This document shows positions 8,204-35,000 of a stretch of 64,000 nucleotides of DNA, one piece after another. A program made the translations under genes and the position numbers. A model generated the notes under the pieces. It did not search any database and was not told where the DNA came from. It saw nothing but the letters and a program-made list of their open reading frames with translations. Source of the DNA: Planctomycetota bacterium (lineage in GTDB: Bacteria; Planctomycetota; PLA2; JAEUHO01); contig CBDCWP010000010.1 in the NCBI GenBank assembly GCA_965223505.1, positions 32,001 through 96,000 of the forward strand. The letters are read 5' to 3'. Each line of letters begins with the position of its first letter. Position 1 is the stretch's first letter.

Positions 8204-8271
8204 GCGGCGCAGAGGATACCCGTTTGGCTGATGACCGTCGGGAAGCACGGGTTGGTACGATTGCCCGCGTG

Positions 8272-9696
8272 ATGCATCGCACCCTTTGTCTCGTGGTCGT
8301 TCTCGCCGTCTCCCCGCCCGCCCGCGCGGACGAGTCGCCCGCCAAGGGCGCCGCGCACGCCGTTCCGAAGGTGGACGGCATGGTCTTCGTCGGCGTCAAC
8401 GAGCACGGCGCGGAGGAGTGGTATCGCGTCATCGACGAGGCCATCGTGATCCGGATTCCCGGCGGTCCGTTCCTCGAGCGGCCCTACGAGGCCCAAGGGA
8501 CGACCGAGGATCCGAAGCCCTCCAACGTCGCGTCGTTCTTCGTCGACAAGCACGAGGTGACCAACGCGCAGTTCGTCCGGTTTCTCAACGCGGTCGTTCC
8601 GAACGGACGCACATCGCTCTCGAAAGACGGACCTGCGCTGTTGGTGCCGCCCGCGGAGAAGCGATGGGCGCACATCCTGCGCGCGGTCAACGACGGGAAG
8701 GAGCACCCGTCCGACGGCTGGCGCGTCGTCCCCGGCCGTGAGTCGCATCCGGCCACGATGGCGACGGGACACGGCGCGCTGCAATACGCGAAGTGGGTTC
8801 GGGGCCGCATTCCCGAGCGCAGGGAGTGGGAGAAGGCGGCGGGCGGACCGAAAGGGCTGATCTATCCGTGGGGCGATGCGCCGCCCGACGCGACCCGCGC
8901 GAACTTCGGCGGCGTCGATGCGAAAGGCACGTTACCCGTCGGCTCGCGGCCCGACGGCGCGTCGCCCTACGGCGTCATGGACATGGCCGGCAACGCGTAC
9001 GAGCGCGTCATGACGATTCGCAACAACCAGAGCCTTCCCGTCATGATCAAGGGCGGCGCCTGGGTCTCGCCGCATCCCCTCAACCTGCGGGTGAGCGACA
9101 TGTGCGTCCAGCCGATGCAGGTTGCGGATCGAAGTGTCGGGTTCCGGTGCGCGATGGACGATCCGCAGCCGGACCGCGCCTCGATGCCCGAAGATGCGTC
9201 GCCTGTCTTGCGGCTCGAGAGCGACTTCAGCGACGCCGTCGAACGCGCGCAGGAAGAGCGCAAGCCGATCTTCCTGTCGCTGATGTACGAAACCTGCGGC
9301 CAGTGCGACCGGGTGCGTGCCCAGCTCTATCGCGATCCGCTGTTCATCGCGTACTGCAACGAGTACATGGTCGTCGTGTTCGGCCTGCAGGCCGGCGACG
9401 CCACCACCCGTGGCTACAAGCCCAAGGACCGTCCGCTGCATCCGGACATCGAGCAGTGGGAGCACCACCATCTCTTCAGCCGCGGCATCGCGGTGGTCGA
9501 GGGCTTCCAGGTTTCGCCGGGGAACTTCGTGCTGCATCCCGATCGCGCCGCGCCCGGCGCCGGAGAGAAGGCCCTGCTCGTCTCGGAGCGCGAGCTACCG
9601 AAGTGGGGCGGCGCCACGGACACGTACCTGCGCGCGTTCGATCGCGCGCGCAAGGCGTTGGCCGCGGAGGACGCGAAAGCCTCCGAGAAAAAGTGA
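8272..9696 (+). CDS. Secreted FGE-sulfatase (SUMF1-like) domain protein with C-terminal thioredoxin-like CxxC domain
   Basis: Signal peptide ending ARA; EVTNAQF, EWEKAA, YPWG, DMAGN, GFRCA; then YETCGQC. Confidence 0.82.
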   Translation: MHRTLCLVVVLAVSPPARADESPAKGAAHAVPKVDGMVFVGVNEHGAEEWYRVIDEAIVIRIPGGPFLERPYEAQGTTEDPKPSNVASFFVDKHEVTNAQFVRFLNAVVPNGRTSLSKDGPALLVPPAEKRWAHILRAVNDGKEHPSDGWRVVPGRESHPATMATGHGALQYAKWVRGRIPERREWEKAAGGPKGLIYPWGDAPPDATRANFGGVDAKGTLPVGSRPDGASPYGVMDMAGNAYERVMTIRNNQSLPVMIKGGAWVSPHPLNLRVSDMCVQPMQVADRSVGFRCAMDDPQPDRASMPEDASPVLRLESDFSDAVERAQEERKPIFLSLMYETCGQCDRVRAQLYRDPLFIAYCNEYMVVVFGLQAGDATTRGYKPKDRPLHPDIEQWEHHHLFSRGIAVVEGFQVSPGNFVLHPDRAAPGAGEKALLVSERELPKWGGATDTYLRAFDRARKALAAEDAKASEKK

Positions 9697-9735
9697 ACCG
9701 GAAACGGGTGTGACGGGCACTCCACACCAGACGCG

Positions 9736-12465: not shown

Positions 12466-12468
12466 CCG

Positions 12469-16208: not shown

Positions 16209-18590
<2,382 letters not shown>

Positions 18591-18612
18591 CGATCCCGTC
18601 CTGAGGTGAGCG

Positions 18613-19167
18613 ATGCCTGACGCGAGCGCCGTCGCCGGCGTGTCCGACCACGCGGGTTGGGCCGTGGTGGTGTGCGTGGAGGCCGGTCGCGTGCTCGACG
18701 CACGCCGGATCGAGCTGCTCGAGCCCGGCCTGCCGAAGCTTCCGCACCATCACGAGGCGCAGACGCTTCCGATCGGTGAGGCGACGGCGCTCATCGAGCG
18801 GGTGCGCGCATCGGCGGTGTCGTGCGCGAGCACGGCGCTGGACGTGCTGCCTGCGGGTGTCGGCGCGATCGCGATTCGCAAGCGTCCCGCGCTGTCTTCG
18901 AGCCTCGAAGAGCGAATCGGCAACTACTGGGCACAGTGCCGGGCCGACTCGGTAATGTACCGCGACGTGCTTGCCGAGACGGCGCGGGCTCGAGGCTGGA
19001 CGGTGCACGAGTACGACGCGAAGGCGGTCACGGCGGAGGCGGCCGACGTGCTCGGACTCGACGACGTCGCGGCGCACTTGAAGGCGCTCGGCAAGGCGTT
19101 CGCGCCGCCCTGGAACAAGGACCACCGTCTCGCGACCTCCGCCGCCATCGTGGCCGCGGCGAGGTAG
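18613..19167 (+). CDS. Hypothetical protein
   Basis: GAGGTG RBS, protein-like composition, co-oriented with katG; no motif recognised. Confidence 0.7.
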   Translation: MPDASAVAGVSDHAGWAVVVCVEAGRVLDARRIELLEPGLPKLPHHHEAQTLPIGEATALIERVRASAVSCASTALDVLPAGVGAIAIRKRPALSSSLEERIGNYWAQCRADSVMYRDVLAETARARGWTVHEYDAKAVTAEAADVLGLDDVAAHLKALGKAFAPPWNKDHRLATSAAIVAAAR

Positions 19168-19199
19168 CAGGCGCGCCGGGCGCACGCTACGTTCTGCCC

Positions 19200-19673
19200 G
19201 TGCCGAACGACGCCGCCATTCGCGCGTTCTGGGAACGCTGCCGAGCGCAGCGGCCCGCGTGGCAACGGGCGGACTTCCCGGCGCCCGAGGCCTGGGGCTT
19301 CGGGGCCGATTCCGCCATGGCCGACCGGTTGGGTGCGCTCGTGATCGAAGGCGTCAAGACCGCGACGAGCAGCGCGCTCTGGGAGTACGAGCATGACGGA
19401 TCGCCGCTGCCACGTGCCGGTGATCTCGGCAACGTGATCGACGGGCAAGGCGAACCGCTCTGCTTGATCGAGACGACGGAGGTTCTGGTCCTGCCCTTCG
19501 ATCAGGTGCCGTCCGACTTCGCCTACGAAGAGGGAGAGGGGGATCGCACGCTCGCTACGTGGCGTGAGGCGCATTGGGACTTCTTCGCGGGCTTCCTCCC
19601 ACGCATCGGATTGAAGCCCGCGTCCGACATGCCGGTCGTGTGCGAGCGCTTCCACGTGCTGGCGCTCGCGTGA
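19200..19673 (+). CDS. ASCH domain protein
   Basis: GVKTATSS, FAYEEGEGD, WREAHWDFF, VCERF motifs. Confidence 0.9.
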   Translation: MPNDAAIRAFWERCRAQRPAWQRADFPAPEAWGFGADSAMADRLGALVIEGVKTATSSALWEYEHDGSPLPRAGDLGNVIDGQGEPLCLIETTEVLVLPFDQVPSDFAYEEGEGDRTLATWREAHWDFFAGFLPRIGLKPASDMPVVCERFHVLALA

Positions 19674-19704
19674 TCGGCAAGGCGAACGGCGTGCGCCAGG
19701 TGGC

Positions 19705-19917
19705 TCACGCCGACCTGGCGCCCCACGAACGGGCAAGCCCTGGCGCATCTCCATGTTCTGCATTCGAGCGCGCCGCGAGCCACGTCCGCAACAGGCGATC
19801 GATCTCCGTCTCGCTCGCGTGCGGGTGGCCGCGCCGCAGTTGTGCCCGCTTCATCGGCACGACGGCCTCGAACAGGTCGAGCGCTTGTCGAAGTCGAAGG
19901 GCATGCGTGCGGGGCAT
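19705..19917 (-). CDS. MenA1 (Rv0078B)-like antitoxin, orphan
   Basis: RLRQALDLFE..MKRAQLRRGHPHASETEIDRLLRTWL..RSNAEHGDAPG resembles M. tuberculosis MenA1 as recalled; no intact toxin downstream. Confidence 0.65.
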   Translation of the reverse strand: MPRTHALRLRQALDLFEAVVPMKRAQLRRGHPHASETEIDRLLRTWLAARSNAEHGDAPGLARSWGARSA

Positions 19918-19985
19918 GCTGTTGGAACCGCACGGGCGGGGGACATGCAGGCGCGACCTCCCTACAATCCCGCCCGGAGGCATGG

Positions 19986-22361
19986 ATGTCGGACATGGAT
20001 CTCAGGCAGGACAGCGCACTGCACCCCGAAGGCGGCGAGCCGAAGTACAGGATCGAAGCACCGATCGGGCAGGGGGGCATGGGCGACGTTTATCTCCTCG
20101 AGGACCGGGACCTCGGCAGGCAGGTGGCCCTGAAGGTCCTGAAAGCCGATCTCGCGGAGGAAGACGCAGCGCGCGCGCACTTCGTGGCGGAAGCCCAAGC
20201 GACGAGCCAGCTCGAGCATCCCGGCGTGCCGCCGGTGCACGACCTCGGTGTGACGGCCGATGGGCGCGTCTACTTCACGATGAAGCTGATCCGCGGCCGG
20301 ACGCTGCGGGAGATCCTGCACGATCTCGTGCTCCGGCGCCGCGAGGTTCAGCGCGAATACAACCTCCACCGACTCGTCAGCATCGTGGCTCGCATCGCGG
20401 AGACGCTCCACTTCGCCCACGAGCGGGGCGTGCTCCACCGTGACATCAAGCCCGAGAACATCATGCTCGGCGACTACGGCGAGATTCACCTGGTCGACTG
20501 GGGCCTGGCTCGCGTCGATCGCCTTCCGGACGGTGAGGACCTGGAGGATGCGGAGCAGGTCGCCACGGCGCGCAGTTCGGAAGGTCTCCAGACCGAGCAC
20601 GGATCACTGAAGGGCACCTTGGCCTACATGAGTCCCGAGCAGGCACGCGGCGCCGTCCATGACCTCGATCCACGTAGCGAGGTCTTTGCTCTGGGCCTTG
20701 TGCTCTACGAGATCCTCACGTTGAAACCCGCCTTCGACCCGACCGATGCGAACCTGCTGGCCGCCGTCGCCGGCGCCGAGGTCCCCGACGTCGCAGAGCG
20801 CAATCCCAAGCGCAAGATTCCCACGGGGCTCGTGTCCGTCGTCCGCCGCGCGCTGCAGCCCGATCCAGCAGATCGGTTCCGAGACGCGAGCGCCATGGGG
20901 GAGCGTCTGCGCGCGTGGCTCGACGGCACGAGCGATCGAGACCGACGCCACGAGGAGGCGGAGCGCCTTGCGCGGGAAGGGCGCGAAGCGATCGGCCACT
21001 TTCAAGGACTGGCCAACGAGGCGCGCGAGGCCGAGGTGCGGGTCGAGGAGGTCAAGGCGGGGCTTGCCCCGCACCAGCCGATCGAGGAGAAGACGGCGTT
21101 GATCGCGGCACGCGCATGCGTGAAGCAGAAGAAGCGCGAAGTGGCGCTTGCGTTCGCCGATGCCACCCACCTGCTCAACGCAGCGCTCGCCCAGGAACAG
21201 GAGAACCCGTCGGCGCGTTCCGCGCTGTCCGACTTGTGGAAGGACCGCCTCGAGGATGCGGAGCGCGAGGGCGATGCGGCCGACGCCGCGCACGCCTTGG
21301 CCATGATCGAGCGTTATGACGACGGCTGTCTGGCGGCGTTCGTCGCCGGGGACGGGAGCCTCAGCCTGACCTCTGAACCTCCGGGTGCCGAGGTGAGCGT
21401 TGGCCGGTTCGAGGAGCAGAAGGGCGTCTTGGCGGTCGGAGAGGAGCGTGGGTTGGGGCCTACGCCGATACGGCGGGTCGGTCTACCCATGGGCTCCTAC
21501 CTCTGCACCCTGAAGCATGAGAGCGGCGAGGTCGTGCGCTATCCCGTTCACATCACCCGCAACCACCACTGGGAGGGCAAGGTCCGACTGCGTACGCGGG
21601 CGGAGATCGGAGACGGGTTCGTCTACGTACCGGGCGGCCCGTACCTCTACGGGGAGGGACGCGACGCGCGTGTCGTCGAGGTGCCCGACTTCGCCATCCA
21701 GCGCTTTCCGGTCACGTTCTGTGAGTACGGCGCGTTTCTCCAGGCCATCGAGGCGGAAGAGGGACGGGAGGCCGCTCGACAACGCGTGCCGCGTATCGGG
21801 TCCTCCGATGGCGAGTACATGGTGCGCGCGGAGGACGGATCGTGGCGCCCGAGGCCGGATCTGATCGAGGGCGATGCCCTGAAAGCGGCTCTCGAGCGGT
21901 TCGGTCCGGGTTTCGAGAAGGACATTCCCGTCCTGGCCGTCTCGTTCCATGACGCCGAGGCCTATTGTGCCTGGAAGACGAATACGACGGGGCTCACGTG
22001 GCGGCTACCGACCGAGCTCGAGCGCGAGAAGGCGGCGCGCGGCGTGGATGGCCGCATGTTTCCGTGGGGCGACATCGAGGATGCGAGCCTCGGCAAGTGC
22101 AGGGAATCCAGGGCCGAGAGCACGCAGCCCGAGCCGGTCGGTGCGTTTCCGCGCTCCGCGTCCGTCTACGGCATGGGCGACGCCGCCGGCGGCGTCTGGG
22201 ACTGGACGACGTCCTGGCTCGACCACCGCGAGGTGCTGCGCGTGTTGCGCGGCGGCTCCTGGGTCAATCCACCAGCGGGCATGCGCTGCGCGGTTCGCAT
22301 CGGCACCCAGCCGTCGAACCGCATCGCGGACTACGGGTTTCGTTGCGCGAGGGACCTCTAG
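19986..22361 (+). CDS. Ser/Thr kinase + coiled coil + PEGA-like + FGE-sulfatase (CLec-fold) fusion; putative DGR target 1
   Basis: IGQGGMG, HRDIKPEN, DWGL, YMSPEQ; LTSEPPGAEV; WRLPTELEREKAARG, FPWG, RVLRGGSW...GFRCARDL-stop; TACAAT -10 and GGAGG RBS. Confidence 0.92.
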   Translation: MSDMDLRQDSALHPEGGEPKYRIEAPIGQGGMGDVYLLEDRDLGRQVALKVLKADLAEEDAARAHFVAEAQATSQLEHPGVPPVHDLGVTADGRVYFTMKLIRGRTLREILHDLVLRRREVQREYNLHRLVSIVARIAETLHFAHERGVLHRDIKPENIMLGDYGEIHLVDWGLARVDRLPDGEDLEDAEQVATARSSEGLQTEHGSLKGTLAYMSPEQARGAVHDLDPRSEVFALGLVLYEILTLKPAFDPTDANLLAAVAGAEVPDVAERNPKRKIPTGLVSVVRRALQPDPADRFRDASAMGERLRAWLDGTSDRDRRHEEAERLAREGREAIGHFQGLANEAREAEVRVEEVKAGLAPHQPIEEKTALIAARACVKQKKREVALAFADATHLLNAALAQEQENPSARSALSDLWKDRLEDAEREGDAADAAHALAMIERYDDGCLAAFVAGDGSLSLTSEPPGAEVSVGRFEEQKGVLAVGEERGLGPTPIRRVGLPMGSYLCTLKHESGEVVRYPVHITRNHHWEGKVRLRTRAEIGDGFVYVPGGPYLYGEGRDARVVEVPDFAIQRFPVTFCEYGAFLQAIEAEEGREAARQRVPRIGSSDGEYMVRAEDGSWRPRPDLIEGDALKAALERFGPGFEKDIPVLAVSFHDAEAYCAWKTNTTGLTWRLPTELEREKAARGVDGRMFPWGDIEDASLGKCRESRAESTQPEPVGAFPRSASVYGMGDAAGGVWDWTTSWLDHREVLRVLRGGSWVNPPAGMRCAVRIGTQPSNRIADYGFRCARDL
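22234..22352 (+). repeat. DGR variable-repeat-like region VR1
   Basis: Matches 27091-27209 except at positions explainable as template adenines; matches 27303-27352 except at 4 adenines. Confidence 0.8.
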
Positions 22362-22444
22362 CCCCCTGGCTCCCTGCGCTCGGGGTGGCGTGCTCGATGT
22401 AGCGAGATCTGTGTGCGTGCCGGGCGGAGGCGTGCCGGACCTTT

Positions 22445-22532
22445 CGCCCGCTGCCTTGGACTCGTCGCTTTTCTCCGCCAACCCCGCATCGACGGCGTTC
22501 TCGTCGCCGGAGTCCTGCTGCTTCGCGGAGTC
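22445..22532 (-). pseudogene. Degenerate copy of a thiC 3' end
   Basis: Reads DSAKQQDSGDENAVDAGLAEKSDESKAAG; aligns at nucleotide level with the copy at 24515-24642. Confidence 0.7.
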
Positions 22533-22550
22533 TGCCTCGGCCCCAGGTCC

Positions 22551-24359
22551 TCAGAGCAGCTCCAGGATGATCACGGTGGCGACGGCCATGGTGAGGCTCA
22601 TGCCGATTCCCACTCGGGCAAAGTCCTTGGTTCGATAGCCCCCGGGTCCCATGACCATGAGATTGCACTGATGGGCGAACGGGAGCATGAAGGCACAGCT
22701 CGTTCCGAAGGCGACGGCCATGAACGTCTTCGACAGGTCAAGGCCGGACATGCTGGACACCTGCCATGCAACCGGAGCAAGAATGACGGCTGCCGCTCCG
22801 TTGTTGCTGGTGGTGCTGAGCACGGCGCTGACGACGAACAAGGCCGCGAATACGCCGGAGGAACCGAGTGGCGATTTCAGCTGTACCAGGAACGTCGCCA
22901 TCTCACCCGCCACCCCGTGCTGCTCCAACGCCATCCCGAGGGGGACCGTACCGGCGATCAGGAACAGGATCCGGAAGTCCACGGAGCGGCGCGCGGCCTC
23001 CAGGGACACGCAGCCTGTCGCGAGCATCAGGAGGGCGCTTCCGATTGCGCTGAGCGCCAGCGGCAACCAGTTGACGAGTGGCGGGATCAGGGCGACGAGC
23101 AAGAGAGCAATCGCAAGTGGTGCTCTACGGACGTCCTCCGCTTGGGCGGCGTCGGTAAGCACGATGAAGCGCGGATCCTCGGACAGCTTGCGGAGGTCCG
23201 GGGCCGAACCGGAGACGAGGAAGGCATCACCCAGCTGGAGTGGTTCGTCGCCGAGATTGCCTGCGATGACCTGATCGCGGCGCATGATCGCAAGGGCGCT
23301 GAGGCCGAATTCGTTACGGAAGGAAAGGCTGCGAAAGGTCTCTCCGATGGCCTCCGACCGCGGCGGGAGCGTCGCTTCGCCCAACAGCACGCCCTGCTGG
23401 AGAAGGCGAGTCGTCACCGCGGGATCCGCGATCCCGAACTGCACAAGGGCTTCTTCCGCGAATCGCCACGCGTTCTCTTCGGCTCCGGCTACGTACAACT
23501 GATCATCGGGTTCGATACGCAGGTCAGGGTGGGGGTGAATCGACGTGCGCCGCCTGGTGCCTTTGGGTCTACGTACCAGCACGACCCTGAGGGACCAACG
23601 CCCGCCGATATCGGCTTCACGGAGCGATTGGCCGGCGATCTCCGACTCATCGGGAACGCGCATGCGATAGAGATTCTCGGGGAAGTTGTAAGCCTCGGCC
23701 AACTCCTCAGGAACCTGCGCGCGGCCTAGCCGCTCTTCGCTCGACTCTTTCGGTAGCATGCGTCTGCCGATGATGCTCATGTACGCGATGCATATCGCCG
23801 TTACTGGCGCGCCGACTTTCGCGAACATGAACATGTCTACGGGCGTGCCCAGCCGGCCGCGCAGGTCTTCGGCGAGGATGAGGTTCGGTGTCGTTCCGAT
23901 CACGGTGAGGGCGCCGCCGACGATGGCGGCGAAGGCGAGCGGCATCATCAGCCTCGACGCCGGGACCTCCGCGCGGCGTGCGAGCACTGCCACCGCCGGC
24001 AGGAAGACGGCCACCGTCGCCGCATTGGACATGAACGCCGAGAGCACGGCCACCGATGCCATGATCGCAACGATCAGACGCACCTCGCTTCGCCCGCCGA
24101 CGCGTTGCAGTCCGCGGGCCATGAGCGTGGCGACGCCGCTCTCCTTCAGGCCCGCGCCCATGACGAAGATCGCCCCGAGTGCGATGACCGCGGGGTTTCC
24201 GAATCCGACGAGGGCCTGGTCGGGGCTCTCGAGCGTGCCCGTCGCCGCAAGTACGACCGGAATGGCCAGGGCTGTCATCGCGAGGGGGATCGCCTCCGTG
24301 ATGAAGAGGACGACCGCGGCTACGAGCGTGCCAATGGCGATGAGTTCATGAATTCCCAC
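22551..24359 (-). CDS. SLC13/CitMHS-family permease with TrkA-C domains
   Basis: Multi-TM; SAFMSNAATVA, TVIGTTPNL, two soluble TrkA-C-like repeats, HQCNLMVMGPGGY. Confidence 0.9.
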   Translation of the reverse strand: MGIHELIAIGTLVAAVVLFITEAIPLAMTALAIPVVLAATGTLESPDQALVGFGNPAVIALGAIFVMGAGLKESGVATLMARGLQRVGGRSEVRLIVAIMASVAVLSAFMSNAATVAVFLPAVAVLARRAEVPASRLMMPLAFAAIVGGALTVIGTTPNLILAEDLRGRLGTPVDMFMFAKVGAPVTAICIAYMSIIGRRMLPKESSEERLGRAQVPEELAEAYNFPENLYRMRVPDESEIAGQSLREADIGGRWSLRVVLVRRPKGTRRRTSIHPHPDLRIEPDDQLYVAGAEENAWRFAEEALVQFGIADPAVTTRLLQQGVLLGEATLPPRSEAIGETFRSLSFRNEFGLSALAIMRRDQVIAGNLGDEPLQLGDAFLVSGSAPDLRKLSEDPRFIVLTDAAQAEDVRRAPLAIALLLVALIPPLVNWLPLALSAIGSALLMLATGCVSLEAARRSVDFRILFLIAGTVPLGMALEQHGVAGEMATFLVQLKSPLGSSGVFAALFVVSAVLSTTSNNGAAAVILAPVAWQVSSMSGLDLSKTFMAVAFGTSCAFMLPFAHQCNLMVMGPGGYRTKDFARVGIGMSLTMAVATVIILELL

Positions 24360-24422
24360 ATCGGAAGGGTACGCCTGACCCTCCAAGCGCAAGACTGTTG
24401 CGTACCCCCTTGATCGACACGC

Positions 24423-24462
24423 CGGCCTCGAACAGGTCGCGCGCTTGTCGAAGTCGAAGGGC
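24423..24462. repeat. 40-bp direct repeat of 19863-19902 (fragment of the menA1-like gene)
   Basis: cggcctcgaacaggtcg(a/c)gcgcttgtcgaagtcgaagggc, one mismatch. Confidence 0.85.
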
Positions 24463-24514
24463 CGCGGCTTTCTGCTAGAGATCGTAGAGCGACGCGGTTG
24501 GGCGGTGGCCGAAG

Positions 24515-24642
24515 CTACGAGTAGATCTCGCCGCCCGCTGCCTTGAACTCGTCGCTCTTTTCCACCAACCCGCTTCGACGGCTTCCTCGTCGTCGAGGCC
24601 CTGCTGTTTCGCGCAGTCGCGCACCTGCTGCGTGATCTCCAT
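24515..24642 (-). pseudogene. thiC 3'-end remnant
   Basis: [42 protein letters not shown]-stop (one frameshift) versus ThiC tail [15 protein letters not shown]...AGGEIYS. Confidence 0.85.
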
Positions 24643-24823
24643 GGCGTGTTCGGGCGGGCAGGTGCGGGTCATCGGCGGTAGACCCTTGGTCCATGCGAGG
24701 CGATGGAGAGGGTGTTTGTCCAGCCGCGAGCGTTTGCCCGAGTTTCCGGGTTGCTACATGGCGTCGCCCCTGGGCGGGCAAACCTCCGCCCGCTCTGCCT
24801 AGAATCCTCGCGGAGGACTCCGC

Positions 24824-27218
24824 ATGAGCCACGTGATCGGACCGCGCAGCATCATCGAGTGGGCCGAGAAGGCGCCCGAGGGCCTCGGCGGGGAGTTCAC
24901 CCCCTCCGAGGAACGTTTCGTCACGGAGGGCACGGTGGGACGCGGCGCGATGGGGGAGGTGTTGCTCGTCAGCGACCAGGACCTCAAGCGCCAGATCGCC
25001 ATGAAGGTGCTCCGTGAAGAATCGGCCGGGACCCGCGAGCATCGGCTGCACTTCCTCGCGGAAGCGCAGGCCACCAGCCAGCTCGAGCACCCCGGAATTC
25101 CCCCGGTCCACGACATCGGCCTGACCCCCGAAGGTCGGCTCTTCTTCACGATGAAGCTGGTCCAAGGACGCACCCTCGAGGAGGTGCTTCACGACCTCGT
25201 GCTCAAGCGCCGCGCGGTCCTGCGCGAGTACGACCTGCACCGGCTGGTGACGGTGCTCGAGCGCATCTGCGAGCCGCTCCACTTCGCCCACGAGAAGGGG
25301 GTCGTGCATCGCGACCTCAAGCCCGCCAACATCATGCTCGGTGACTTCGGCGAGGTGCACGTCATGGACTGGGGGGTCGCCAAGACGCTGGGGGAGAGCG
25401 ACGAAGAAGGAGCGCTCGAGCCCGTCGAGACGATGCGTACGGAAACGGGTCTCGAGACCCGGCACGGAACCGTCAAGGGGACGGTCCCCTACATGAGCCC
25501 CGAGCAGTTTCGGGGGCAGCCGCTCGATCGACGCAGCGACGTCTACGCGCTGGGCTGCCTGCTCTACGAGATGCTCACGCTCCAGATGGCCTTCGACCCG
25601 CACGATCGCGACCTCTTGCAAAAAAAGGTGAGCGGAACCGTCCCCGACGTGCGCACACGCAATCCGCGGCGCAAGGTGCCCGAGCCTCTGGCCGGAATCT
25701 GCGAGCGGGCCATGTCTGCCGACCCGAACGACCGGTACCAGACGGCCGACGCGCTCGCGCACGACCTTCGGGGCTGGCTCGACGGCACCTTGGAGGCGAC
25801 GCGGCGGCACGAGGAGGCCGAGCGCCTCGCGAGCGAGGGGCGGGACGCGGCAGATCGGTTCCGGACGCTGGAACACGAGATGCGCGAGGCCGAGACTACG
25901 CGCGACGAAACGGCCGAGCGGGGCGAAGCGTGGCGGCCGCTGGCGGAGCAGACACCCTGGCTCGAGGCGCGCGCGCGGGTGCGTGCGTTGGAGCGGGACA
26001 CCGCCATCGCCTTCGCCGACGCCACGCACCTGCTGAACGCCGCGCTCGTGCAGGAGGAGGACAACGCGTCGGCGCGCACGGCGCTAGCCGACCTGTGGAA
26101 GCACCGTCTCGACGATGCCGAGGCGCGAGGCGATCCGGCTGACGCTGCTCATGCGATTGCGATGGTCGAGCGTCACGACGACGGCCGGCTCGCGTCCTAC
26201 ATCGCGGGGCGCGGCAGCCTGACGCTCGGGTCGGAGCCTGTTGGCGCCGAGGTCTTCCTCTCGCGCTACGAAGACCGCGACGGCGTCCTCGTCGCCGAAG
26301 GAGAACGATCGATCGGCGTCGCGCCGATCGCTGGACACGCGCTCCCCATGGGCTCGTACCTGTGCGTCCTCAGGCACGAGGGGCTGCCGGACATTCGCTA
26401 CCCCGTGCAACATCGCGCGCAATCGGGAGTGGGAGGGAACGGTGCGCATGCCCGAGGCCGAGGAGGTCGGCGAGGGCTTCGTCCACGTTCCCGCCGGTCC
26501 CTTCATCTACGGGGAGGGCAAGACGAGGACGGAGATCGACCTGCCGGACTTCGCGATCCATCGGTTCCCGGTGACGTTCGGCGACTACCTCGAGTTCGTG
26601 GCCCACGTCGAGGCCGAAGAGGGACTCGAGGCCGCCACGGCGCGCGCGCCGCAGACGCCGGGAGACGGCCTGTACGTCGAGCGCACCGAGGCCCGGGTGT
26701 GGCGCACGCTGCCGGTGATCGTCGAGGGCGAGGCGTACGAGGCGTCGCTCGAGCGATTCGGGGAGGGGTTCCTCGAACGGATCCCCGTGATGGGGGTGTC
26801 GTTCGAAGATGCCGAGGCCTACTGCGCGTGGAAGACGAAGACCAGCGGCTGTACGTGGCGCTTGCCGAGCGAAGAGGAGCGCGAGAAGGCCGCGCGCGGC
26901 GTGGACGGGCGCACCTTCCCCTGGGGCGAGACCGAGCACGCGAGTCTCGGGAAGTGCCGAGAGTCGCGGCCGGAGAGAACGCAGCCCGAGCCCGTCGGCG
27001 CCTTCCCCACGGCAGCGTCGGTCTACGGCATGGGCGATGCCGCTGGCGGCATGTCGGACTGGACGACGTCGTGGCTCGATCACCGCGAGGTGCTGCGCGT
27101 GTTGCGCGGCGGCTCCTGGAACGCTCCACCGGCGAACTTGCGCTGCGCGTCTCGAAGCGGCGTCCAGCCATCGGTCCGCAGCTCGAACATCGGGTTTCGT
27201 TGCGCGAGGGACCTGTAG
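24824..27218 (+). CDS. Ser/Thr kinase + FGE-sulfatase fusion, paralog of 19986-22361; putative DGR target 2; one +1 frameshift near 26409
   Basis: Same architecture as paralog; RYPV continues as (H)IARNREWEG in the shifted frame (paralog RYPVHITRNHHWEG); TAGAAT -10 and GGAGG RBS. Confidence 0.88.
27091..27209 (+). repeat. DGR variable-repeat-like region VR2
   Basis: Matches 27303-27352 except at 4 adenines; co-linear with VR1. Confidence 0.8.
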
Positions 27219-27302
27219 CCCCCTGGCTCCCTGCGGCCTGTCCGGGGCCCCTGCGAGCACAGGCCCGCCCAAGGGTCGAGATACGGCACCGAAAGCGTTG
27301 GT

Positions 27303-27352
27303 TGCTGCGCGTGTTGCGCGGCGGCTCCTGGAACAATCCACCAGCGAACATG
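27303..27352 (+). repeat. Truncated DGR template-repeat-like fragment
   Basis: tgctgcgcgtgttgcgcggcggctcctggAACAATCCACCAGCGAACATG; intergenic, AAY-rich, differs from both VRs only at A. Confidence 0.75.
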
Positions 27353-27465
27353 TCCGTACACCACTCGGGTGGTGCCGCCTGCAGCCACCATCGACGATCG
27401 GTGTCGAGGGAGACACGGAACCGCGAGCCCACGGTACCGCCCGTGTGCGCTGCTATGCTCTCGGG

Positions 27466-29856
27466 ATGTGGCGACTCGCCCCCCTGCTGCTCCTCGGCGC
27501 GGCCTGCGGCGGCGGTAGCGACGCCACGCCGCTGCCGACGGCCGAGGTCCTTGCCGTTACCACCCCTCTCCCGGCCGCCGGCGGCGTGGAATTTGCTGTA
27601 ACCGGCACGAGCCTGCCCGGAGGCGTCGGGGAAACCGTCGGCGTGCTGTTTCGCGCTGTCGAAGGAAACCCGTTCCTGGGCTGCACCACAGACACCCTCG
27701 ACGCCGTGGGCACGATCGCCGAGGACGGCAGCGTGCAGGGCACCGCGCCCGTGACCGGACTCGCGGGTCCTGTCGATGCCTACGTCACGCTCGACTACGG
27801 CGCCGGCGTGGAGCTCACCTCCGCGGCACCGATCGCGCGGTTCGAAGGCGGCATGGATCCCGCGATCGACCAGGACCTCGACGGCGTCCACGACCGCTGC
27901 GATCCAAAGACCTACGACTTCGAGGACGATGTGCCGGGCGTGCGGCCATCGGGCATGACCCAGCTCGACGGGCTCGAGCCGGGCTTTGTCGTCGCAACGA
28001 TGGACGGCGAGCAGGTCGCGCGCTACGACGGCGCCGCTTCCACGGGCCTGCACGATCGCTTCGACCGGTTTCGGCAGGACCTCCCGCACCAGGACGTCAC
28101 CGCGTACATCGACTACGACAGCACACCGAGCCTCTGTTCGCTCGAGTTCTGGTCGGAGGGCTCGTACGCGGGGAACGCGGGCGCCGGCCTGATCCTGCAG
28201 GTGCGGAGCGGGCTCCTCTACTTCTTCCCCCGCATCTGGCGCAACGTCCCCCCGGTGGTAGGACCCGCGCTCCCCGCGAGCGGCCGCATTCGCGTGCGAC
28301 TCCGGAAGGAGGAAGGAACCCGCAGCACCATGTACGTGGACGCGTGGGTGTCGGGCGCGTGGACGCTCGATCACGCCGTGTTCCCGATTCCCGACGACCG
28401 CCCCTTCCGGGGGCTCGACACCGCGATGGCGGACTATGGTTTCGGTTCGCGTGGCGTGAAGCGCGTCACGCTCGTGCGCGAACCGCTCGCCGGTGCCCTG
28501 ACCATTGCCCGCGCCGCACACACCGTGGCCGACTGGAAGCTCTTCCAGCGCGATGCCGACGACCGGGCCGCGATTCCCCTGCCGGTGCACTACAACGCCA
28601 GCGAGCCCGTCGTCTTGCAGGCCCGCGTGGTCTCGAGCGAGACACGAAGCGTGCTTCCAGGACACGGGTTCGCCGACCACCGCCTGGATCTTCCGGCAGC
28701 AACCGGTGGTCGGGCGTCCCTCGAGCTTGCGGGTGTGCCGACCGGTGGCAACTACGACATCGAGGTCCTGCTCACGGCGGCGGACGACGGCGCCGTGCTT
28801 GCCTTCGATCGCGTCGAGGAGATTGCGGTCGGCGATCTGTGGCTTGCCATCGGCCAGAGCAACATGGCCGGCTACTCCGGCACGCTCGCCGGCGCCACGA
28901 CGCCCATTTCGCAGGCGCACCTCTACGGCAATGACGGGCGTTGGAAGCAGGCGACCGAGCCCATGGACGACGGTACCGACCAGCTCGACGCCGTCTCGCG
29001 CGAGTCGCCGCAACACAGCCTGATGCTGCCCTTCGCCAAGTACCTCTACGAGCAGACAGGCGTCCCCGTCGGCGTCATCCCGGCGCCGAAGGGCGGCACG
29101 TACCTCTACACCCAGTGGCAGCGCAAGCCCGACGACCCGGATCACCGCGCGACGCTCTACGGCTCCGCCCTACACCGGGCACTCGTCCAAGGCGGTCCAC
29201 CCTTGCGCGGCATCCTCTGGTACCAGGGCGAGGGGGACGCCATCGCAGGCCGCACGACGGCGCAGTACAGGGAGGATCTCGAGCGGCTCATCGCGCAGTA
29301 CCGGGCCGACCTGTCGGCACCCGAGGCGGTGTTCCTCTGCGTGCAGTTGGGGACGTGGTCGGCCGGCCGCTTTCCCCACTGGACGAACATCCAGGAGGCG
29401 CAGCGGCAGGTGTGCCGGGCAGACGCCCTCGCCGCCCTGGCGACGGTGAAGGACCAGCCGCACTCCGACGGCATCCACTACGCGGTCGCGGCCGCCCAGG
29501 AGCTCGGCATGCGCTTGGCGGACCAGGCCCGCGTGCTTGTGTTCGGCCACGCGATCGATCCCCTGACCGAACTCGTCGATGTCGTGGCGAGCCCAGACGG
29601 CATGGCGATCGAGTTGCACTACGACGCGCCCGTCTTCGGAGGCGCGGCGGCGCTCTACGCCGTGGCCGACGATACGGGAACCAACGCCGTGATCGGCGTG
29701 TCGGCCTCGGGCAGCACGGTCACGCTCGAGCTCACCCGCGCGCTCGATGCCGGCGCTCTCGTGCGCTACGGCATGGCGACCGGCTCGAACGTCGCTTGGG
29801 TCGAGGATGCCCAAGGCGTGCCCGTCCCGGCCCTTGCCGACGTCGCCGTCCGGTAG
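27466..29856 (+). CDS. Lipoprotein with sialate O-acetylesterase/SASA (SGNH) domain
   Basis: Lipobox LLLGAAC; GDLWLAIGQSNM, GILWYQGE, DGIH motifs; N-terminal beta-rich modules. Confidence 0.85.
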   Translation: MWRLAPLLLLGAACGGGSDATPLPTAEVLAVTTPLPAAGGVEFAVTGTSLPGGVGETVGVLFRAVEGNPFLGCTTDTLDAVGTIAEDGSVQGTAPVTGLAGPVDAYVTLDYGAGVELTSAAPIARFEGGMDPAIDQDLDGVHDRCDPKTYDFEDDVPGVRPSGMTQLDGLEPGFVVATMDGEQVARYDGAASTGLHDRFDRFRQDLPHQDVTAYIDYDSTPSLCSLEFWSEGSYAGNAGAGLILQVRSGLLYFFPRIWRNVPPVVGPALPASGRIRVRLRKEEGTRSTMYVDAWVSGAWTLDHAVFPIPDDRPFRGLDTAMADYGFGSRGVKRVTLVREPLAGALTIARAAHTVADWKLFQRDADDRAAIPLPVHYNASEPVVLQARVVSSETRSVLPGHGFADHRLDLPAATGGRASLELAGVPTGGNYDIEVLLTAADDGAVLAFDRVEEIAVGDLWLAIGQSNMAGYSGTLAGATTPISQAHLYGNDGRWKQATEPMDDGTDQLDAVSRESPQHSLMLPFAKYLYEQTGVPVGVIPAPKGGTYLYTQWQRKPDDPDHRATLYGSALHRALVQGGPPLRGILWYQGEGDAIAGRTTAQYREDLERLIAQYRADLSAPEAVFLCVQLGTWSAGRFPHWTNIQEAQRQVCRADALAALATVKDQPHSDGIHYAVAAAQELGMRLADQARVLVFGHAIDPLTELVDVVASPDGMAIELHYDAPVFGGAAALYAVADDTGTNAVIGVSASGSTVTLELTRALDAGALVRYGMATGSNVAWVEDAQGVPVPALADVAVR

Positions 29857-29910
29857 GCACGGCAAGGCAAGGCCGGTCCGGCTGCGAAGTGGCGCTGGCG
29901 CGGAGACGGG

Positions 29911-31866
<1,956 letters not shown>

Positions 31867-31891
31867 GGATCATACGCTGGCGAGCCACCCT

Positions 31892-32004
31892 GTGGGGGCA
31901 GCCCTTGTGGCTGCCCAACGAGGGAACATGACCAATTGGGCGACCACGAGGGTCGCCCCTACCACGGACGCGCGCGATTGGGCGACCACGAGGGTCGCCC
32001 CTAC
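31892..32004. repeat. REP doublet plus an extra REP
   Basis: GGGCAGCC/GGCTGCCC and two GGGCGACC/GGTCGCCC-CTAC units; last CTAC overlaps the RND gene stop. Confidence 0.9.
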
Positions 32005-35000
32005 TCGGCGCCGATCTCCGCCGGAATCTTGAAGAAGATCGCGTACAGCGTCGGCACCACGATCAGCGTCAGCACCGTCGCGAAGCCCAGACCCGCCATC
32101 ACCGTCACCGCCAACGAGTTGAAGAACACGTCCGGCAGCAAGGGGATCATCCCGAGCACGGTCGTGAACGCCGCCATGCCGACCGGCCGCAGACGCCCCA
32201 CACAGGAGTCGAGGACCGCCACGATCCGCTCCTTGCCGCTCGCGATCTGCATGTCCATCTCGTCCACCAGGACGACGGCGTTCTTGATCATCATGCCGAT
32301 CAGGCTCAACAGACCCAGCAGCGCCATGAAGCCGAACGGCGAGCCGGCGGCCAACAGCCCGCCCGTCACGCCGATCAACGCCAGCGGCACCGTCAGGAAG
32401 ATGACCATCGGCTGGCGCAGCGCGTTGAACAGCGCGAGCACGATCAACACCATCATCAGCAGCGTGATGGGCAGGTTGCCCGCGATCGCCGCCTGGGCGT
32501 CCCCCGAGTTCTCGTACTCGCCGCCCCACTCGAAGCCGTAGCCGGGCTTCATCTCCGCCTTCATCTTGGCTTCGATCTCGGGCATGATCCGCTTGAGCAA
32601 CGCGCTCGGCAGGCCGACCGACGCATTGCACTGCGGCGTGATGGTCGAGGCGCGGTTGAAACGCTGGATGATGTGGTCTTCCCACTCGGTCGTGAACTCC
32701 GGTGCGACCTGCACCAGCGGAATCGACTCGCGCGCCGCCGGGCTCCAGATCTGCACGTCGCGGATGCTGCCGACGTCGGAGCGCTCGTTCGCCGGCGCCC
32801 GCGCCTTGATGGGAATGAGGTCGTCCCCTTCGCGGTAGAGACCGACGTTGATGCCGCCGAATGTGCGTTGCAACGCGACGGCGACGTCGCGTCTCGTGAC
32901 ACCCGCACGCGCCGCGCGCGTGTCGTCGATCTGCGGCCGCAGCACCTTGGCCTGCTCGCGCCAATCGTGGCGGATGTCCCGCGCGTGCGGGTCGGCGGCC
33001 ATGATGTCCATGACCAGCCCGGCGAGCCGGCGCAGCTCCGCCGGATCCTGGCCGCGCAACCGCAGCTCGATGTCGGAGCCGCCGCCCGGCCCCAGCACGA
33101 ACGGCGCGCCGTACGCCAGTCCGTCGGGCAAGCTCGACGCCACGAAGGCCTCGATGTCGGCGATCATCCCGTCGATGCGTTCGTAGCCGTCCACCTTGAT
33201 GATCATCTGACCGTAAGCGGTGTTCGGTTGCTCCGGCGCGTACGTCAGCAGGAAGCGCATCGACCCCTGGCCGATCGTCGTCGCGACCGACTCCGTGCCG
33301 TCAAGATTGAGCACGAACTCCTCGAGCCGTGCCAGGTCGTCGGAGGTTCGACGGATGTCGGTTCCTTCCGGCAGCCAGTAGTCCACGGTGAACTGCGGCG
33401 TCGTCGAGCTCGGGAAGAAGCTCTGATCGACGAACTTGAAGCCGCGCATCGCGACCGCGAGCAAGAGCACCATCACGCCGACCGTGACCCAGCGCATCTT
33501 GATGCAGCCGTGGAGGAACGCGCGGTATCCGCGGAAGAACACGCCGCCGTAGGGGTCCTTGTCGTCGTCCGACTCGTCGGCTTTCAGGAGCGTGACGCAG
33601 AAGAGCGGCGTGACCGTGACCGCCAGCAGCCAGCTGAGCAGCAACGAGTACATGATCACCTGGTAGAGCGAGCGACAGAACTCGCCCGTGCTGTCCTGCG
33701 AGGCGCCCAGCGCGGCGAAGGCGAGGATCGCGACGAACGTCGCGCCCAGCAGCGGCCACATCGTCTGTTTCACGACGGCCGTCGCCGCCTCGACGCGCTC
33801 CATCCCCTTCGAGATGTTGATCATGATCCCTTCGGTGACCACGATCGCGTTGTCCACGAGCATGCCGAGCGCGATGATCAAGGCGCCCAGCGAGATGCGC
33901 TCGAGCGCGACGCCCTTCATCTTCATCAAGATGAACGTGGCCAGCACCGTCAGCAGGAGGATCGCGCCGATCAGCAGTCCGCTGCGCATGCCCATCGCGA
34001 AGACGAGCACGCCGATCACGATCGCGAGCGCCTGCAGAAGACTGATCAGGAATCCTTGGACCGCCGCGGTGACGCCGTCGGCCTGGAAATACACCACACC
34101 GGTCTCGATGCCGATGGGCGTGTCGGCCTGGAGCTCCCGCAGGCGCTTGCGGACCGACTGGCCGACGGTGACGACGTTGCCGCCTTGCACTGTCGAGACG
34201 CCGACGCCGATGGCGGACCGGCCGTTGAACCGCAGCATGCTCGCCGGCGGTGACTCGTAGCCGCGCGTGATCGTCGCGATGTCGCGCAAGTAGACCTGGC
34301 TGTCCGCCGCGATGCCCTGGATGCGCAGGTTGCCGATCGAGTCCACGGAGTCGAGTCCCTCGATCGGCAGGATGCGGATGTACTCGCGGCCGATGCGCAT
34401 CTCGCCCGAAGGCTGGATGACGTTCTTGCCTTCCAGGCTGGCGTAGATCTGCGACTCCGGCACGCCGAGCTGCTTCAGCCGGTCACGGCTGATCTCGACG
34501 TAAATGACCTCTTTCTGGACGCCGAAGAAGGTGACCTTGGCGACGTCGTCGAGGAGCAGCAGCTCTTTCTCGAGCATGTCGACGTGGTCCTTGAGGTCTT
34601 TGTAGCTGTAGCCGTCTCCGTGAACGGCAAGGTAGATGCCGAATACGTCCCCGAAGTCGTCGTTCACGATCGTCGGCCCGGCGCCGGGCGGCAGCTTGCC
34701 TTGCGCGTCGCCGACCTTGCGTCGCAGCTCGTCCCAGACCTGTGGGAGCGTCGACTGGTCGTACTTGTCCTGGATCGTCACCGTCAGGATCGAAAGGCCG
34801 GGTTGCGAGGTGGGACGTGACCTGGTCGATCTGGCCCAGCTGCTGGACCGCCTTCTCCATGACGTCGGTGACTTCCTCGGCGACCTCCTGGGCAGTCGCG
34901 CCCGGGTAGGAGGTGATCACCTTCGCGTCCTTGATCGTGAACTCGGGGTCTTCGAGACGACCGAGCGTCTCGTAGGCCTGCCAACCGCCGAAGACGATGC

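What the first reader, a model, noticed from the sequence alone, without database searches (positions are those of the whole stretch)
19986..27352. DGR signature: two kinase-FGE fusion genes with adenine-mutagenised C-termini next to a template-repeat fragment
Seen in sequence: after an identical 29-bp leader, the intergenic 50-mer at 27303-27352 reads AAC AAT CCA CCA GCG AAC ATG. Gene 1 reads GTC AAT CCA CCA GCG GGC ATG and gene 2 reads AAC GCT CCA CCG GCG AAC TTG. All 8 mismatches fall on adenines of the fragment (8 of its 9 As) and none on the 41 non-A positions. Beyond the fragment VR1/VR2 differ as GTT/TCT, CGC/CGA, ATC/AGC, ACC/GTC, CCG/CCA, AAC/GTC, ATC/AGC, GCG/TCG, GAC/AAC, TAC/ATC, which is mostly codon positions 1-2 with a fixed third pyrimidine, as expected from AAY template codons. 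Upstream, the paralogs diverge in the ordinary way. Established: DGRs mutate template adenines into the C-terminal VR of CLec/FGE-fold proteins. Inference: these are hypervariable ligand sensors wired to a cytoplasmic Ser/Thr kinase, diversified from one shared template.
Basis: partly seen in the sequence, partly recalled or inferred. Interest (0 to 1): 0.92.

Follow-up and report, generated by a model that had tools for sequence, protein, structure and literature searches.

The report
Decayed DGR locus with template relic
Two paralogous kinase genes carry the adenine-specific scars of a diversity-generating retroelement, but here only the first 50 bases of their template survive and no reverse transcriptase is nearby, so this looks like a switched-off copy of a known kind of targeted-mutation system.

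Summary
The 50-mer at 27303-27352 shares a 29-nt leader with the C-terminal repeats of both kinase-FGE genes. All 8 mismatches fall on its adenines (P about 4e-7). Over the whole 116-nt repeat, VR1 and VR2 differ at 20 of 27 template-A positions but at 2 of 89 other positions, while the 300 nt upstream are 79% identical.

The interpretation needs correcting:
- The 50-mer is the natural 5' end of a template repeat cut off after position 48-50. The assembly holds no 3' half, and the window has no RT or Avd.
- Contigs from 3 runs (2 samples) cross the break.
- Gene 2 has a one-base frameshift between kinase and FGE domain.
- The only RT, Avd and full TR lie on another contig (C43), in a complete paralogous DGR with two more kinase-FGE targets. 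That TR differs from the window's VRs at five non-A positions, so it did not write them.

Best reading: a degenerate DGR locus whose VRs are now frozen. Kinase-CLec targets and degenerate DGR loci are both in print, so this is a new member of a known kind.

The parts
19986..22361 (+). Gene 1: intact 791-aa Ser/Thr kinase with a C-terminal FGE-sulfatase (CLec-type) domain, a DGR target paralogue
   Evidence: Pfam Pkinase E 1.7e-34 and FGE-sulfatase E 1.6e-37, the latter covering profile positions 4-255 of 255. Kinase motifs VALK, HRDIKPEN, DWG and SPE are present. No 19-residue window reaches mean Kyte-Doolittle 1.6. The FGE domain matches solved FGE and SUMF2 chains.
22234..22351 (+). VR1: variable repeat at the end of gene 1. 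Variable codons lie in 22263-22333.
   Evidence: Relative to the fragment, 4 of 4 mismatches are at A. Its non-A letters at positions 10, 21 and 46 match the fragment, not the C43 template.
22334..22378 (+). Conserved 3' end of VR1 (IMH-like stretch), the stop codon and 17 nt of shared flank
   Evidence: The stretch GGGTTTCGTTGCGCGAG is identical in all VRs and in the C43 TR. Position 117 is G in all four VRs and T in the C43 TR. Homology between gene 1 and gene 2 ends 17 nt past the stop codons.
24824..26409 (+). Gene 2, kinase part (frame 2), up to the frameshift
   Evidence: Pfam Pkinase E 1.7e-40. tblastn of the paralogues runs in frame 2 up to about 26407-26410. Motifs IAMK, HRDLKPAN, DWG and SPE are present.
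26408..26410 (+). One-base insertion (CAAC where the three paralogues have CAC) that splits gene 2
   Evidence: DNA alignment of the four paralogues. Repeat spacing changes from 4859 to 4860 here. Contigs of runs X1 and X2 (one sample) cross it with 0 gaps. The X4 piece has only 22 nt on the left.
26410..27218 (+). Gene 2, FGE-sulfatase part (frame 0), no longer in frame with the kinase
   Evidence: Pfam FGE-sulfatase E 1.2e-38 on the frame-0 ORF 26241-27218. tblastn runs in frame 3 of the subject from 26403 on.
27091..27208 (+). VR2: variable repeat at the end of gene 2. Variable codons lie in 27120-27190.
   Evidence: Relative to the fragment, 4 of 4 mismatches are at A.
27219..27302 (+). 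Spacer between the gene 2 stop and the template relic. It has about the same length as the spacer between target A and the full TR on contig C43.
   Evidence: One search shows patchy similarity to the C43 spacer. The TR starts 212 nt after the VR start here and 211 nt on C43.
27303..27352 (+). Relic of the template repeat: the natural 5' end through position 48-50 of at least 116. All adenines are unmutated.
   Evidence: It keeps A at all 8 positions where the C43 TR has A in this stretch. It differs from the C43 TR at positions 10, 21 and 46, exactly where VR1 and VR2 also differ from it.
27353..27465 (+). Sequence to the right of the break. It is unrelated to any TR, RT or avd and is followed by a lipoprotein gene with a SASA esterase domain (27466-29856).
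   Evidence: There is no second copy in the genome. Contigs of X1, X2 and X4 bridge 27352/27353 with at least 48 nt on the left and 0 differences.
22551..24392 (-). CitMHS-family transporter gene lying between the two targets. It is not a DGR component.
   Evidence: Pfam CitMHS E 2.1e-72 and TrkA_C.

Best explanation
The window holds a degenerate DGR locus. Two paralogous cytoplasmic Ser/Thr-kinase/FGE-fold proteins had their last 116 coding bases repeatedly overwritten by mutagenic retrohoming. In that process a template-repeat RNA is copied by a DGR reverse transcriptase that misreads adenines, and the cDNA replaces the VR.

The template for both genes lay about 85 nt downstream of gene 2. 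A rearrangement has since removed everything beyond its first 48-50 bases. That removed the 3' part a DGR template needs, and any RT/avd that may have lain beyond it. Gene 2 has also acquired a frameshift.

The genome's one remaining RT/Avd/TR set, on contig C43, is a paralogous cassette with its own two kinase-FGE targets. It has not rewritten the window's VRs. VR1 and VR2 are therefore frozen products of past diversification.

Shown here: the A-restricted pattern, the homogenised non-A positions, the truncation, the frameshift, and the separate complete cassette. Inferred: the retrohoming mechanism (from what is established for DGRs), that the loss was a deletion, and that diversification has stopped. 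Whether this locus ever had its own RT or borrowed the C43 RT cannot be told.
For: 1. A-only mismatches: 8 of 8 over 48 nt, P about 4e-7.
2. VR1 and VR2 differ at 20 of 27 template-A positions and 2 of 89 other positions, against 79% identity in the 300 nt upstream. A shared template therefore homogenised them after the genes diverged; the proteins are 56-66% identical.
3. The fragment is template-like. It keeps A at all 8 positions that are A in the C43 TR, and it begins at the same codon and the same distance from a VR as the C43 TR.
4. The fragment ends after position 48. blastn-short of both 128-nt VRs against all 44 contigs found the 3' part only in VR1, VR2 and the three C43 copies.
5. 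tblastn with the C43 RT and Avd found one RT and one Avd in the genome, both on C43.
6. The C43 cassette is complete. It has RVT_1. The letters IGNLTSQ and YADD are in its translation; reading these as DGR-RT and catalytic motifs is from memory. Its Avd is above the NCBIfam cut-off, 88.7 against 80 bits. TR mismatches to its two VRs are 15 of 15 and 13 of 13 at A within positions 1-116.
7. VR1 and VR2 differ from the C43 TR at non-A positions 10, 21, 46, 60 and 93.
8. Gene 2 is frameshifted.
9. Contigs of 3 of 4 runs (2 samples, 1 study) run through the break unbranched. VR1 (X1, X2, X3) and VR2 (X1, X4) are identical to the window, and no variant is listed in the VR ranges.
10. Other rearrangement scars lie around the genes: two relics of the thiC 3' end and a duplicated 61-nt element.
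Against: - The assembly is 92.5% complete in 44 contigs, so a full matching TR with or without an RT could lie in the missing part.
- The runs were available only as contigs at depth about 2-10. Contigs drop rare variants, and the runs may include the window's own source sample. The absence of VR variation and of an alternative allele is therefore weak evidence.
- Non-A positions of VR1 and VR2 are still almost identical (2 of 89 differ). The last rewriting was recent, and ongoing activity would give the same picture.
- In Thiohalocapsa PB-PSB1, loci that looked degenerate in the reference were still diverse, because part of the population kept intact RT and TR (passages of 10.1101/2023.09.22.558884).
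- Gene 1 is intact.
- No related genome with the ancestral arrangement was found, so the deletion is inferred and not observed.
Confidence: 0.7

Rival explanations
1. The locus is still being diversified. A full-length template of the window type (and perhaps a second RT) exists in the unassembled part of the genome or in part of the population. The 50-mer is then a partial extra copy or one structural variant.
For: The assembly is 92.5% complete. The near-identity of non-A positions in VR1 and VR2 (2 of 89 differ) fits recent or current homing. There is precedent in PB-PSB1 locus DGR7, where intact RT/TR variants coexist with deleted ones (passages). A related genome, G011, carries four close DGR RT paralogues, so several cassettes per genome occur in this family.
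Against: No second RT, Avd or matching TR was found in 5.15 Mb. The relic sits exactly where a TR belongs, at the same spacing as on C43. Contigs of three runs pass the break without a branch. Gene 2 is frameshifted. VR1 and VR2 are identical in two samples.
Confidence: 0.13
2. The complete DGR on contig C43 diversifies the window's two genes in trans, using its own TR.
For: The 3' ends of the window's VRs carry the same VR-type letter (G at position 117) as the C43 VRs. They are identical to the C43 TR over positions 99-116. Trans use of a remote TR is described for other DGRs (passages).
Against: A cDNA from the C43 TR cannot produce the letters of VR1 and VR2 at non-A positions 46, 60 and 93, nor at 10 and 21. 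At positions 10, 21 and 46 the fragment has its own letters (T, C, A); VR1 shares all three and VR2 shares 10 and 21. The last writes therefore came from the local template.
Confidence: 0.04
3. The truncated template and the frameshift are assembly artefacts of a metagenome-assembled genome, caused by chimeric joining at a repeat.
For: The genome is a 44-contig assembly. The VR/TR repeats do break the run-level contigs at 22233-22253, 27093-27110 and 27303-27332.
Against: Independent run-level contigs bridge 27352/27353 in X1, X2 and X4 with at least 48 nt on the left and hundreds on the right, without a difference. X1 and X2 cover 26408-26410 without a gap. The shared leader is only 29-32 nt, and the break lies 20 nt beyond it.
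Confidence: 0.03
4. The pattern is ordinary paralogue divergence or gene conversion, with no retroelement involved.
For: None beyond the fact that FGE-domain C-termini are conserved motifs.
Against: The chance of 8 of 8 mismatches on A is about 4e-7. The split of 20 of 27 against 2 of 89 also argues against it. A complete DGR with the same repeat family is in the same genome, and TR/VR pairs with 17 of 17 and 21 of 21 mismatches at A occur in relative G011.
Confidence: 0.01

Closest known systems
Ser/Thr-kinase/CLec variable proteins of cyanobacterial DGRs (Vallota-Eastman et al. 2020, PMC7517822; passages read)
   Same: The target architecture is the same: an N-terminal Hanks-type kinase with a C-terminal CLec/FGE-type domain holding the VR. 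Paralogues are dispersed in the genome. One reported paralogue (all3226) has remnant TR-VR homology but no nearby RT. The authors suggest that diversification components are removed once a variant is selected.
   Different: The host differs: a 67-68% G+C genome that is not a cyanobacterium by composition. Its nearest full-length homologues in named MAGs are labelled Myxococcota or Bradymonadia at 28-36% identity. A piece of the template itself survives here beside the targets, which shows that a template distinct from the surviving one existed.
Degenerate DGR loci of Thiohalocapsa sp. PB-PSB1 (Dore et al. 2023 preprint, 10.1101/2023.09.22.558884; passages read)
   Same: One complete cassette occurs with loci where the RT or TR is missing or broken. 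Some targets have a protein kinase domain. The test of whether VRs match a remote TR at all non-A sites is used there to decide on trans activity.
   Different: In PB-PSB1 the decay is tied to IS and MITE-like elements. No transposase or repeat element was found at the break here. There the non-A test often points to trans use; here it excludes the only remote TR.
Bordetella phage BPP-1 DGR (prototype; introduction of Wu et al. 2018, PMC5758913, passages read; otherwise recalled)
   Same: Shared features are A-specific TR-to-VR differences, AAC-rich template codons at first and second codon positions, a VR at the C-terminus of a CLec-fold protein, an Avd accessory protein, and VR/TR asymmetry at the 3' end.
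   Different: The element here is chromosomal, with cytoplasmic kinase targets, two targets per cassette, and (on C43) the TR on the strand opposite to avd and RT. The window's own copy lacks RT, Avd and most of the TR.
DGR survey and classification of Wu et al. 2018 (PMC5758913; passages read)
   Same: The survey lists one target composition with a kinase domain (b12) and FGE-sulfatase as a VR-bearing domain. [quoted passage not shown]
   Different: The passages read do not describe a truncated TR left beside its targets.

Membership tests
Diversity-generating retroelement (DGR) cassette | TR/VR pair whose differences are restricted to adenines of the TR | tested here: met
   8 of 8 mismatches are at A over the 48 nt that survive. 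VR1 and VR2 differ at 20 of 27 template-A positions against 2 of 89 other positions.
Diversity-generating retroelement (DGR) cassette | A complete template repeat spanning the VR, including its 3' end | tested here: not met
   In the window the template stops after position 48-50 of at least 116. No 3' half was found anywhere in the assembly except on C43, whose TR is of a different type.
Diversity-generating retroelement (DGR) cassette | A DGR-type reverse transcriptase in the locus | tested here: not met
   No RT is present in the window. The single genome hit is on contig C43. It has RVT_1, E 3.4e-15, and contains IGNLTSQ and YADD (the meaning of these motifs is recalled).
Diversity-generating retroelement (DGR) cassette | Accessory protein Avd | tested here: not met
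   None in the window. The only one is on C43, with NCBIfam DivGenRetAVD at 88.7 bits against a cut-off of 80.
Diversity-generating retroelement (DGR) cassette | VR at the C-terminus of a CLec/FGE-fold target protein | tested here: met
   Pfam FGE-sulfatase reaches the last residue in gene 1 and in the FGE part of gene 2. PDB sequence hits are to FGE and SUMF2. Foldseek hits are to FGE-family chains with TM 0.5-0.6, from a model of mean pLDDT 69.
Diversity-generating retroelement (DGR) cassette | IMH/IMH* asymmetry at the 3' end of VR versus TR | tested here: inconclusive
   Position 117 is G in all four VRs and T in the C43 TR. The window's own TR lacks this region, so its IMH* cannot be read.
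Diversity-generating retroelement (DGR) cassette | Ongoing diversification: population variants at template-A sites | tested here: inconclusive
   No variant is listed in either VR in contigs of 4 runs. These are contigs at low depth, not reads.
Ser/Thr-kinase/CLec DGR variable proteins | Hanks-type kinase domain with catalytic motifs, fused to a C-terminal VR-bearing CLec domain | tested here: met
   Gene 1 has Pkinase plus FGE-sulfatase in one frame and all kinase motifs. Gene 2 has both domains, but they are split by a frameshift.
Formylglycine-generating enzyme proper | Catalytic copper-binding cysteine pair and sulfatase-maturing activity | not tested
   Only fold and family similarity was examined. 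The domain is read here as a binding scaffold by analogy with other DGR targets.

The most novel reading that the evidence does not exclude
Hypermutation at this locus may be a structural on/off polymorphism. Part of the population would still carry the full template (and perhaps an RT) downstream of gene 2, while the assembled allele has lost it. The two kinase sensors would then keep diversifying in a minority of cells and be frozen in the rest. A milder form of the same idea is that the locus never had its own RT and its private template was served in trans by the C43 RT/Avd. That would be a one-enzyme, two-template network in which the loss of one template fixes two sensors while the other pair goes on changing.
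Probability: 0.12. Interest if true: 0.5.

Novelty: new member of a known kind. Interest (0 to 1): 0.35.

Why it matters
The locus is a clean natural example of how a targeted-hypermutation system is switched off. The targets and the first 50 bases of the template remain. That is enough to prove past adenine mutagenesis from a template different from the one still present in the genome.

One intact cassette and one decayed cassette of the same family sit in one genome, each with two cytoplasmic kinase/FGE-fold proteins. This gives a simple comparison for asking two questions. Are DGR-written sensors fixed once useful? Can a surviving RT/Avd retarget orphaned VRs?

It does not change what is known about DGRs. 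Kinase-CLec targets and degenerate loci are already in print.

Tried and rejected
- Exact-pattern scan of metagenome contigs for window-type VR/TR (N at variable positions): 0 matches.
- Protein scan of metagenome contigs with the gene 2 kinase part: best relatives are only 52-60% identical, so no close strain was found. Of the 23 loci scanned (L117-L139), 1 (L125) has RT and Avd beside the target. None shows the window's arrangement with an intact template.
- Genome-contig scan with the three-protein alignment: mostly generic kinases. The 7 long kinase-FGE matches (28-36% identity; 6 span nearly the whole query, L038 ends at its contig's end) have 0 of 7 with RT or Avd and no TR-like repeat. 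L040 has one 37-nt repeat of the gene's 3' end.
- Synteny: the SASA-lipoprotein orthologues of G001 (65% identity) and G043 (55-56%) have none of thiC, CitMHS, kinase-FGE, RT or Avd in the stretch fetched around them (about 14-15 kb upstream and 2.5-3 kb downstream). The ancestral state of the break could not be reconstructed.
- A possible second template relic after VR1 (22411-22440): the local alignment score was reached by 30 of 500 and 107 of 500 shuffles, so it was rejected.
- Mobile-element footprint at the break: the 118 nt to its right occur once in the genome. No telling inverted or direct repeat lies there.
- Rfam over 18000-33500: only the TPP riboswitch of thiC.
- Structure: the AlphaFold model of the gene 1 FGE domain from a 13-row alignment has mean pLDDT 69, and residues 149-171, 195-201 and 205-237 are below 50. 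The variable residues could not be placed on a surface.
- Earlier notes of this scan: nothing on this genome fitted.
- Run-level contigs: parts of the stretch are without cover in X3 and X4. Many partial matches pile up around 25250-25640 in the kinase domain; I take them to come from other kinase genes or organisms (my reading), and they carry no weight.
Full report
**What is in the sequence**

The window is G000 contig C10, bases 32001-96000. The assembly is 5.15 Mb in 44 contigs of mostly 67-69% G+C. It is 92.5% complete with 1.7% contamination.

Gene 1 (19986-22361, +) encodes 791 aa. It has a protein kinase domain and an FGE-sulfatase domain that runs to the last residue. The motifs VALK, HRDIKPEN, DWG and SPE are present. 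No 19-residue window reaches mean Kyte-Doolittle 1.6.

Gene 2 starts at 24824 and is 56-66% identical to gene 1 at protein level. Its kinase part is in frame 2 and its FGE part (to 27218) is in frame 0. The switch is one extra base, CAAC at 26408-26410, where gene 1 and the two C43 paralogues have CAC. A CitMHS-type transporter gene lies between the two genes on the minus strand (22551-24392). A lipoprotein gene with a SASA esterase domain (27466-29856) and thiC (29911-31779, minus) follow.

**The observation**

The last 116 coding bases of both genes and the intergenic 50-mer 27303-27352 form one repeat family.
- The first 29 nt are identical in all three copies.
- In the next 21 nt the fragment differs from VR1 at 4 positions and from VR2 at 4 other positions. 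All 8 are adenines of the fragment, which has 9 A.
- The chance of this is about 4e-7.

Taking the A positions of the sister template on C43 (plus position 46), VR1 and VR2 differ at 20 of 27 A positions and at 2 of 89 others. The 300 nt upstream are only 79% identical, and 56% at third codon positions. The non-A letters of the two VRs have therefore been kept alike by copying from one template, long after the genes diverged.

**The rest of the system**

blastn-short of the VRs against the whole assembly found three more copies, all on contig C43. That locus is a complete DGR. Coordinates below are in L001, which is C43:12001-32000.

| Component | Position (L001) | Strand |
|---|---|---|
| Kinase-FGE target A | 7302-9707 | + |
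| A-rich TR | 9793 to about 9915 | + |
| avd | 10452-10060 | - |
| RT | about 11513-10350 | - |
| Kinase-FGE target B | 11594-14002 | + |

- Avd scores 88.7 bits against the NCBIfam DivGenRetAVD cut-off of 80.
- The RT has RVT_1 and contains IGNLTSQ and YADD. The meaning of these motifs is recalled, not tested.
- Within positions 1-116, the TR differs from its two VRs at 15 and 13 positions, all at A.
- tblastn with this RT and Avd finds no second copy in the genome.

**Which template wrote the window's VRs**

VR1 and VR2 differ from the C43 TR at non-A positions 10, 21, 46, 60 and 93. At positions 10, 21 and 46 the fragment has its own letters (T, C, A); VR1 shares all three and VR2 shares 10 and 21. 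At 46 VR2 has T, as expected for a mutated template A. A cDNA of the C43 TR cannot give these letters. The fragment keeps A at all 8 positions where the C43 TR has A. It starts at the same codon as that TR and lies at the same distance from a VR: 212 against 211 nt, VR start to TR start. The fragment is therefore the natural 5' end of a second, paralogous template.

That template stops after position 48-50. What follows (27353-27465) is unique sequence leading into the lipoprotein gene. No 3' half exists elsewhere in the assembly.

**Is the break real, and is anything still varying**

Four public runs (two samples, one study) hold the stretch, all as contigs.
- Contigs of X1, X2 and X4 cross 27352/27353 with at least 48 nt on the left and no difference.
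- X1 and X2 (one sample) cover the frameshift without a gap. The X4 piece has only 22 nt to its left.
- VR1 is identical in X1, X2 and X3, and VR2 is identical in X1 and X4.
- No variant is listed inside either VR.

Contigs drop rare variants, depth is about 2-10, and these runs may include the source of the assembly. This supports the break and the frameshift. It says little about rare diversification.

**History**

The region carries other scars:
- A 61-nt element at 19842-19902 recurs at 24402-24462 (90% identical).
- Two relics of the thiC 3' end lie at 22445-22532 and 24514-24642. The second translates to the ThiC C-terminus with a frameshift.

No IS or repeat element marks the break. A possible second template relic after VR1 is not above chance. 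Relatives did not help. No closer strain was found in metagenomes, and the nearest genera share no synteny here.

**The family in relatives**

Searching the 40 genomes held for the order (G000 included), 12 have a match to the C43 TR. In a separate 41-genome relatives set, 11 have a match to the RT. G011 has four close RT paralogues, and its TR/VR pairs show 17 of 17 and 21 of 21 mismatches at A. A metagenome contig (L125) has the same layout as C43: target, then TR, then avd and RT on the other strand. Across 13 FGE domains of this clade, column entropy is 2.33 bits at the 14 codons with template A in positions 1-2. It is 0.64 bits at the 27 other VR codons.

Many homologues have no DGR nearby. 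Of 23 metagenome loci, 1 has RT and Avd. Of 7 distant full-length homologues in named MAGs, 0 have them.

**How it works**

From established DGR biology, the template RNA is reverse-transcribed with misincorporation opposite A, and the cDNA replaces the VR, guided by the VR's 3' end. The scaffold residues of the FGE/CLec fold stay fixed while about a dozen AAC-type codons are rewritten. In a soluble protein with an N-terminal Hanks kinase, the variable face most likely binds a ligand or substrate that controls or directs phosphorylation. Vallota-Eastman et al. proposed this for cyanobacterial kinase-CLec targets (passages).

In the window this process has left its marks, but its template is now a stump without the 3' end. 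I consider the VRs frozen (confidence 0.7). The model of the FGE domain matches FGE-family structures, but it is of low confidence over the VR. The placement of variable residues is therefore by analogy only.

**Comparison and novelty**

All of the following are in print:
- Kinase-CLec DGR targets, paralogue dispersal and a paralogue with remnant TR-VR homology without an RT (PMC7517822, passages).
- Degenerate loci lacking RT or TR beside complete ones, and the non-A test for trans use (10.1101/2023.09.22.558884, passages).
- A kinase-bearing target class, and TR and RT on different strands (PMC5758913, passages).

I did not read these papers in full, nor their supplements. This locus is a new member of a known kind. 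Its particular value is the surviving template stump, which proves that a second template existed.

**Verdict**

The DGR reading is right in kind, but the system in the window is a relic and one of the two targets is broken. Interest 0.35.

Noticed in passing
window 22445-22532 and 24514-24642 (minus strand): There are two pseudogene relics of the 3' end of thiC; the real gene is at 29911-31779 on the minus strand. The second relic is 78% identical over 130 nt to 29910-30039 and translates to the ThiC C-terminus with a frameshift. The first is 84% identical to the second. They point to segmental duplication or rearrangement around the two kinase genes.
   Followed up: partly
window 19842-19902 and 24402-24462: A 61-nt element is repeated at 90% identity. 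One copy lies 84 nt upstream of gene 1. The other lies just upstream of the CitMHS gene start on the other strand. No Rfam family matches it.
   Followed up: partly
L001 (G000:C43:12001-32000) 7302-14002: This is a complete DGR with two kinase-FGE targets. Its TR is on the plus strand, convergent with avd and RT on the minus strand. The avd start (10452) overlaps the RT end (10350) by about 100 nt. The same layout is seen in metagenome locus L125.
   Followed up: partly
G011 contigs C133, C1, C726, C303 (L003, L012, L013, L014): A genome of the same family carries four DGR RT paralogues (75, 62, 59 and 42% identity to the C43 RT). Its TR/VR pairs have 17 of 17 and 21 of 21 mismatches at A. Beside the 75% RT, the TR-like stretch is homologous only over its 3' 79 nt.
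   Followed up: partly
L015 (G030:C265:8000-19048) 6807-6928 and 10855-10975: An A-rich TR lies next to an RT. A VR-like copy 4 kb away differs from it at 28 positions, of which 11 are not A. This may be another target no longer matched by the local template.
   Followed up: no
L119 and L122 (one 14.3-kb metagenome contig); L120, L124, L128: Kinase-FGE homologues (58-60% identity) occur singly or in pairs, with no RT, Avd or TR in the DNA held. Orphan members of this target family appear to be common.
   Followed up: no
window 31770-31868 (minus strand): A TPP riboswitch lies upstream of thiC (62.7 bits against a gathering score of 54.3).
   Followed up: yes
window 8446-9159 and 11263-11724: Two further FGE-sulfatase-like coding stretches are about 30% identical to the gene 1 FGE domain. 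They are unrelated to the VR repeat family.
   Followed up: no
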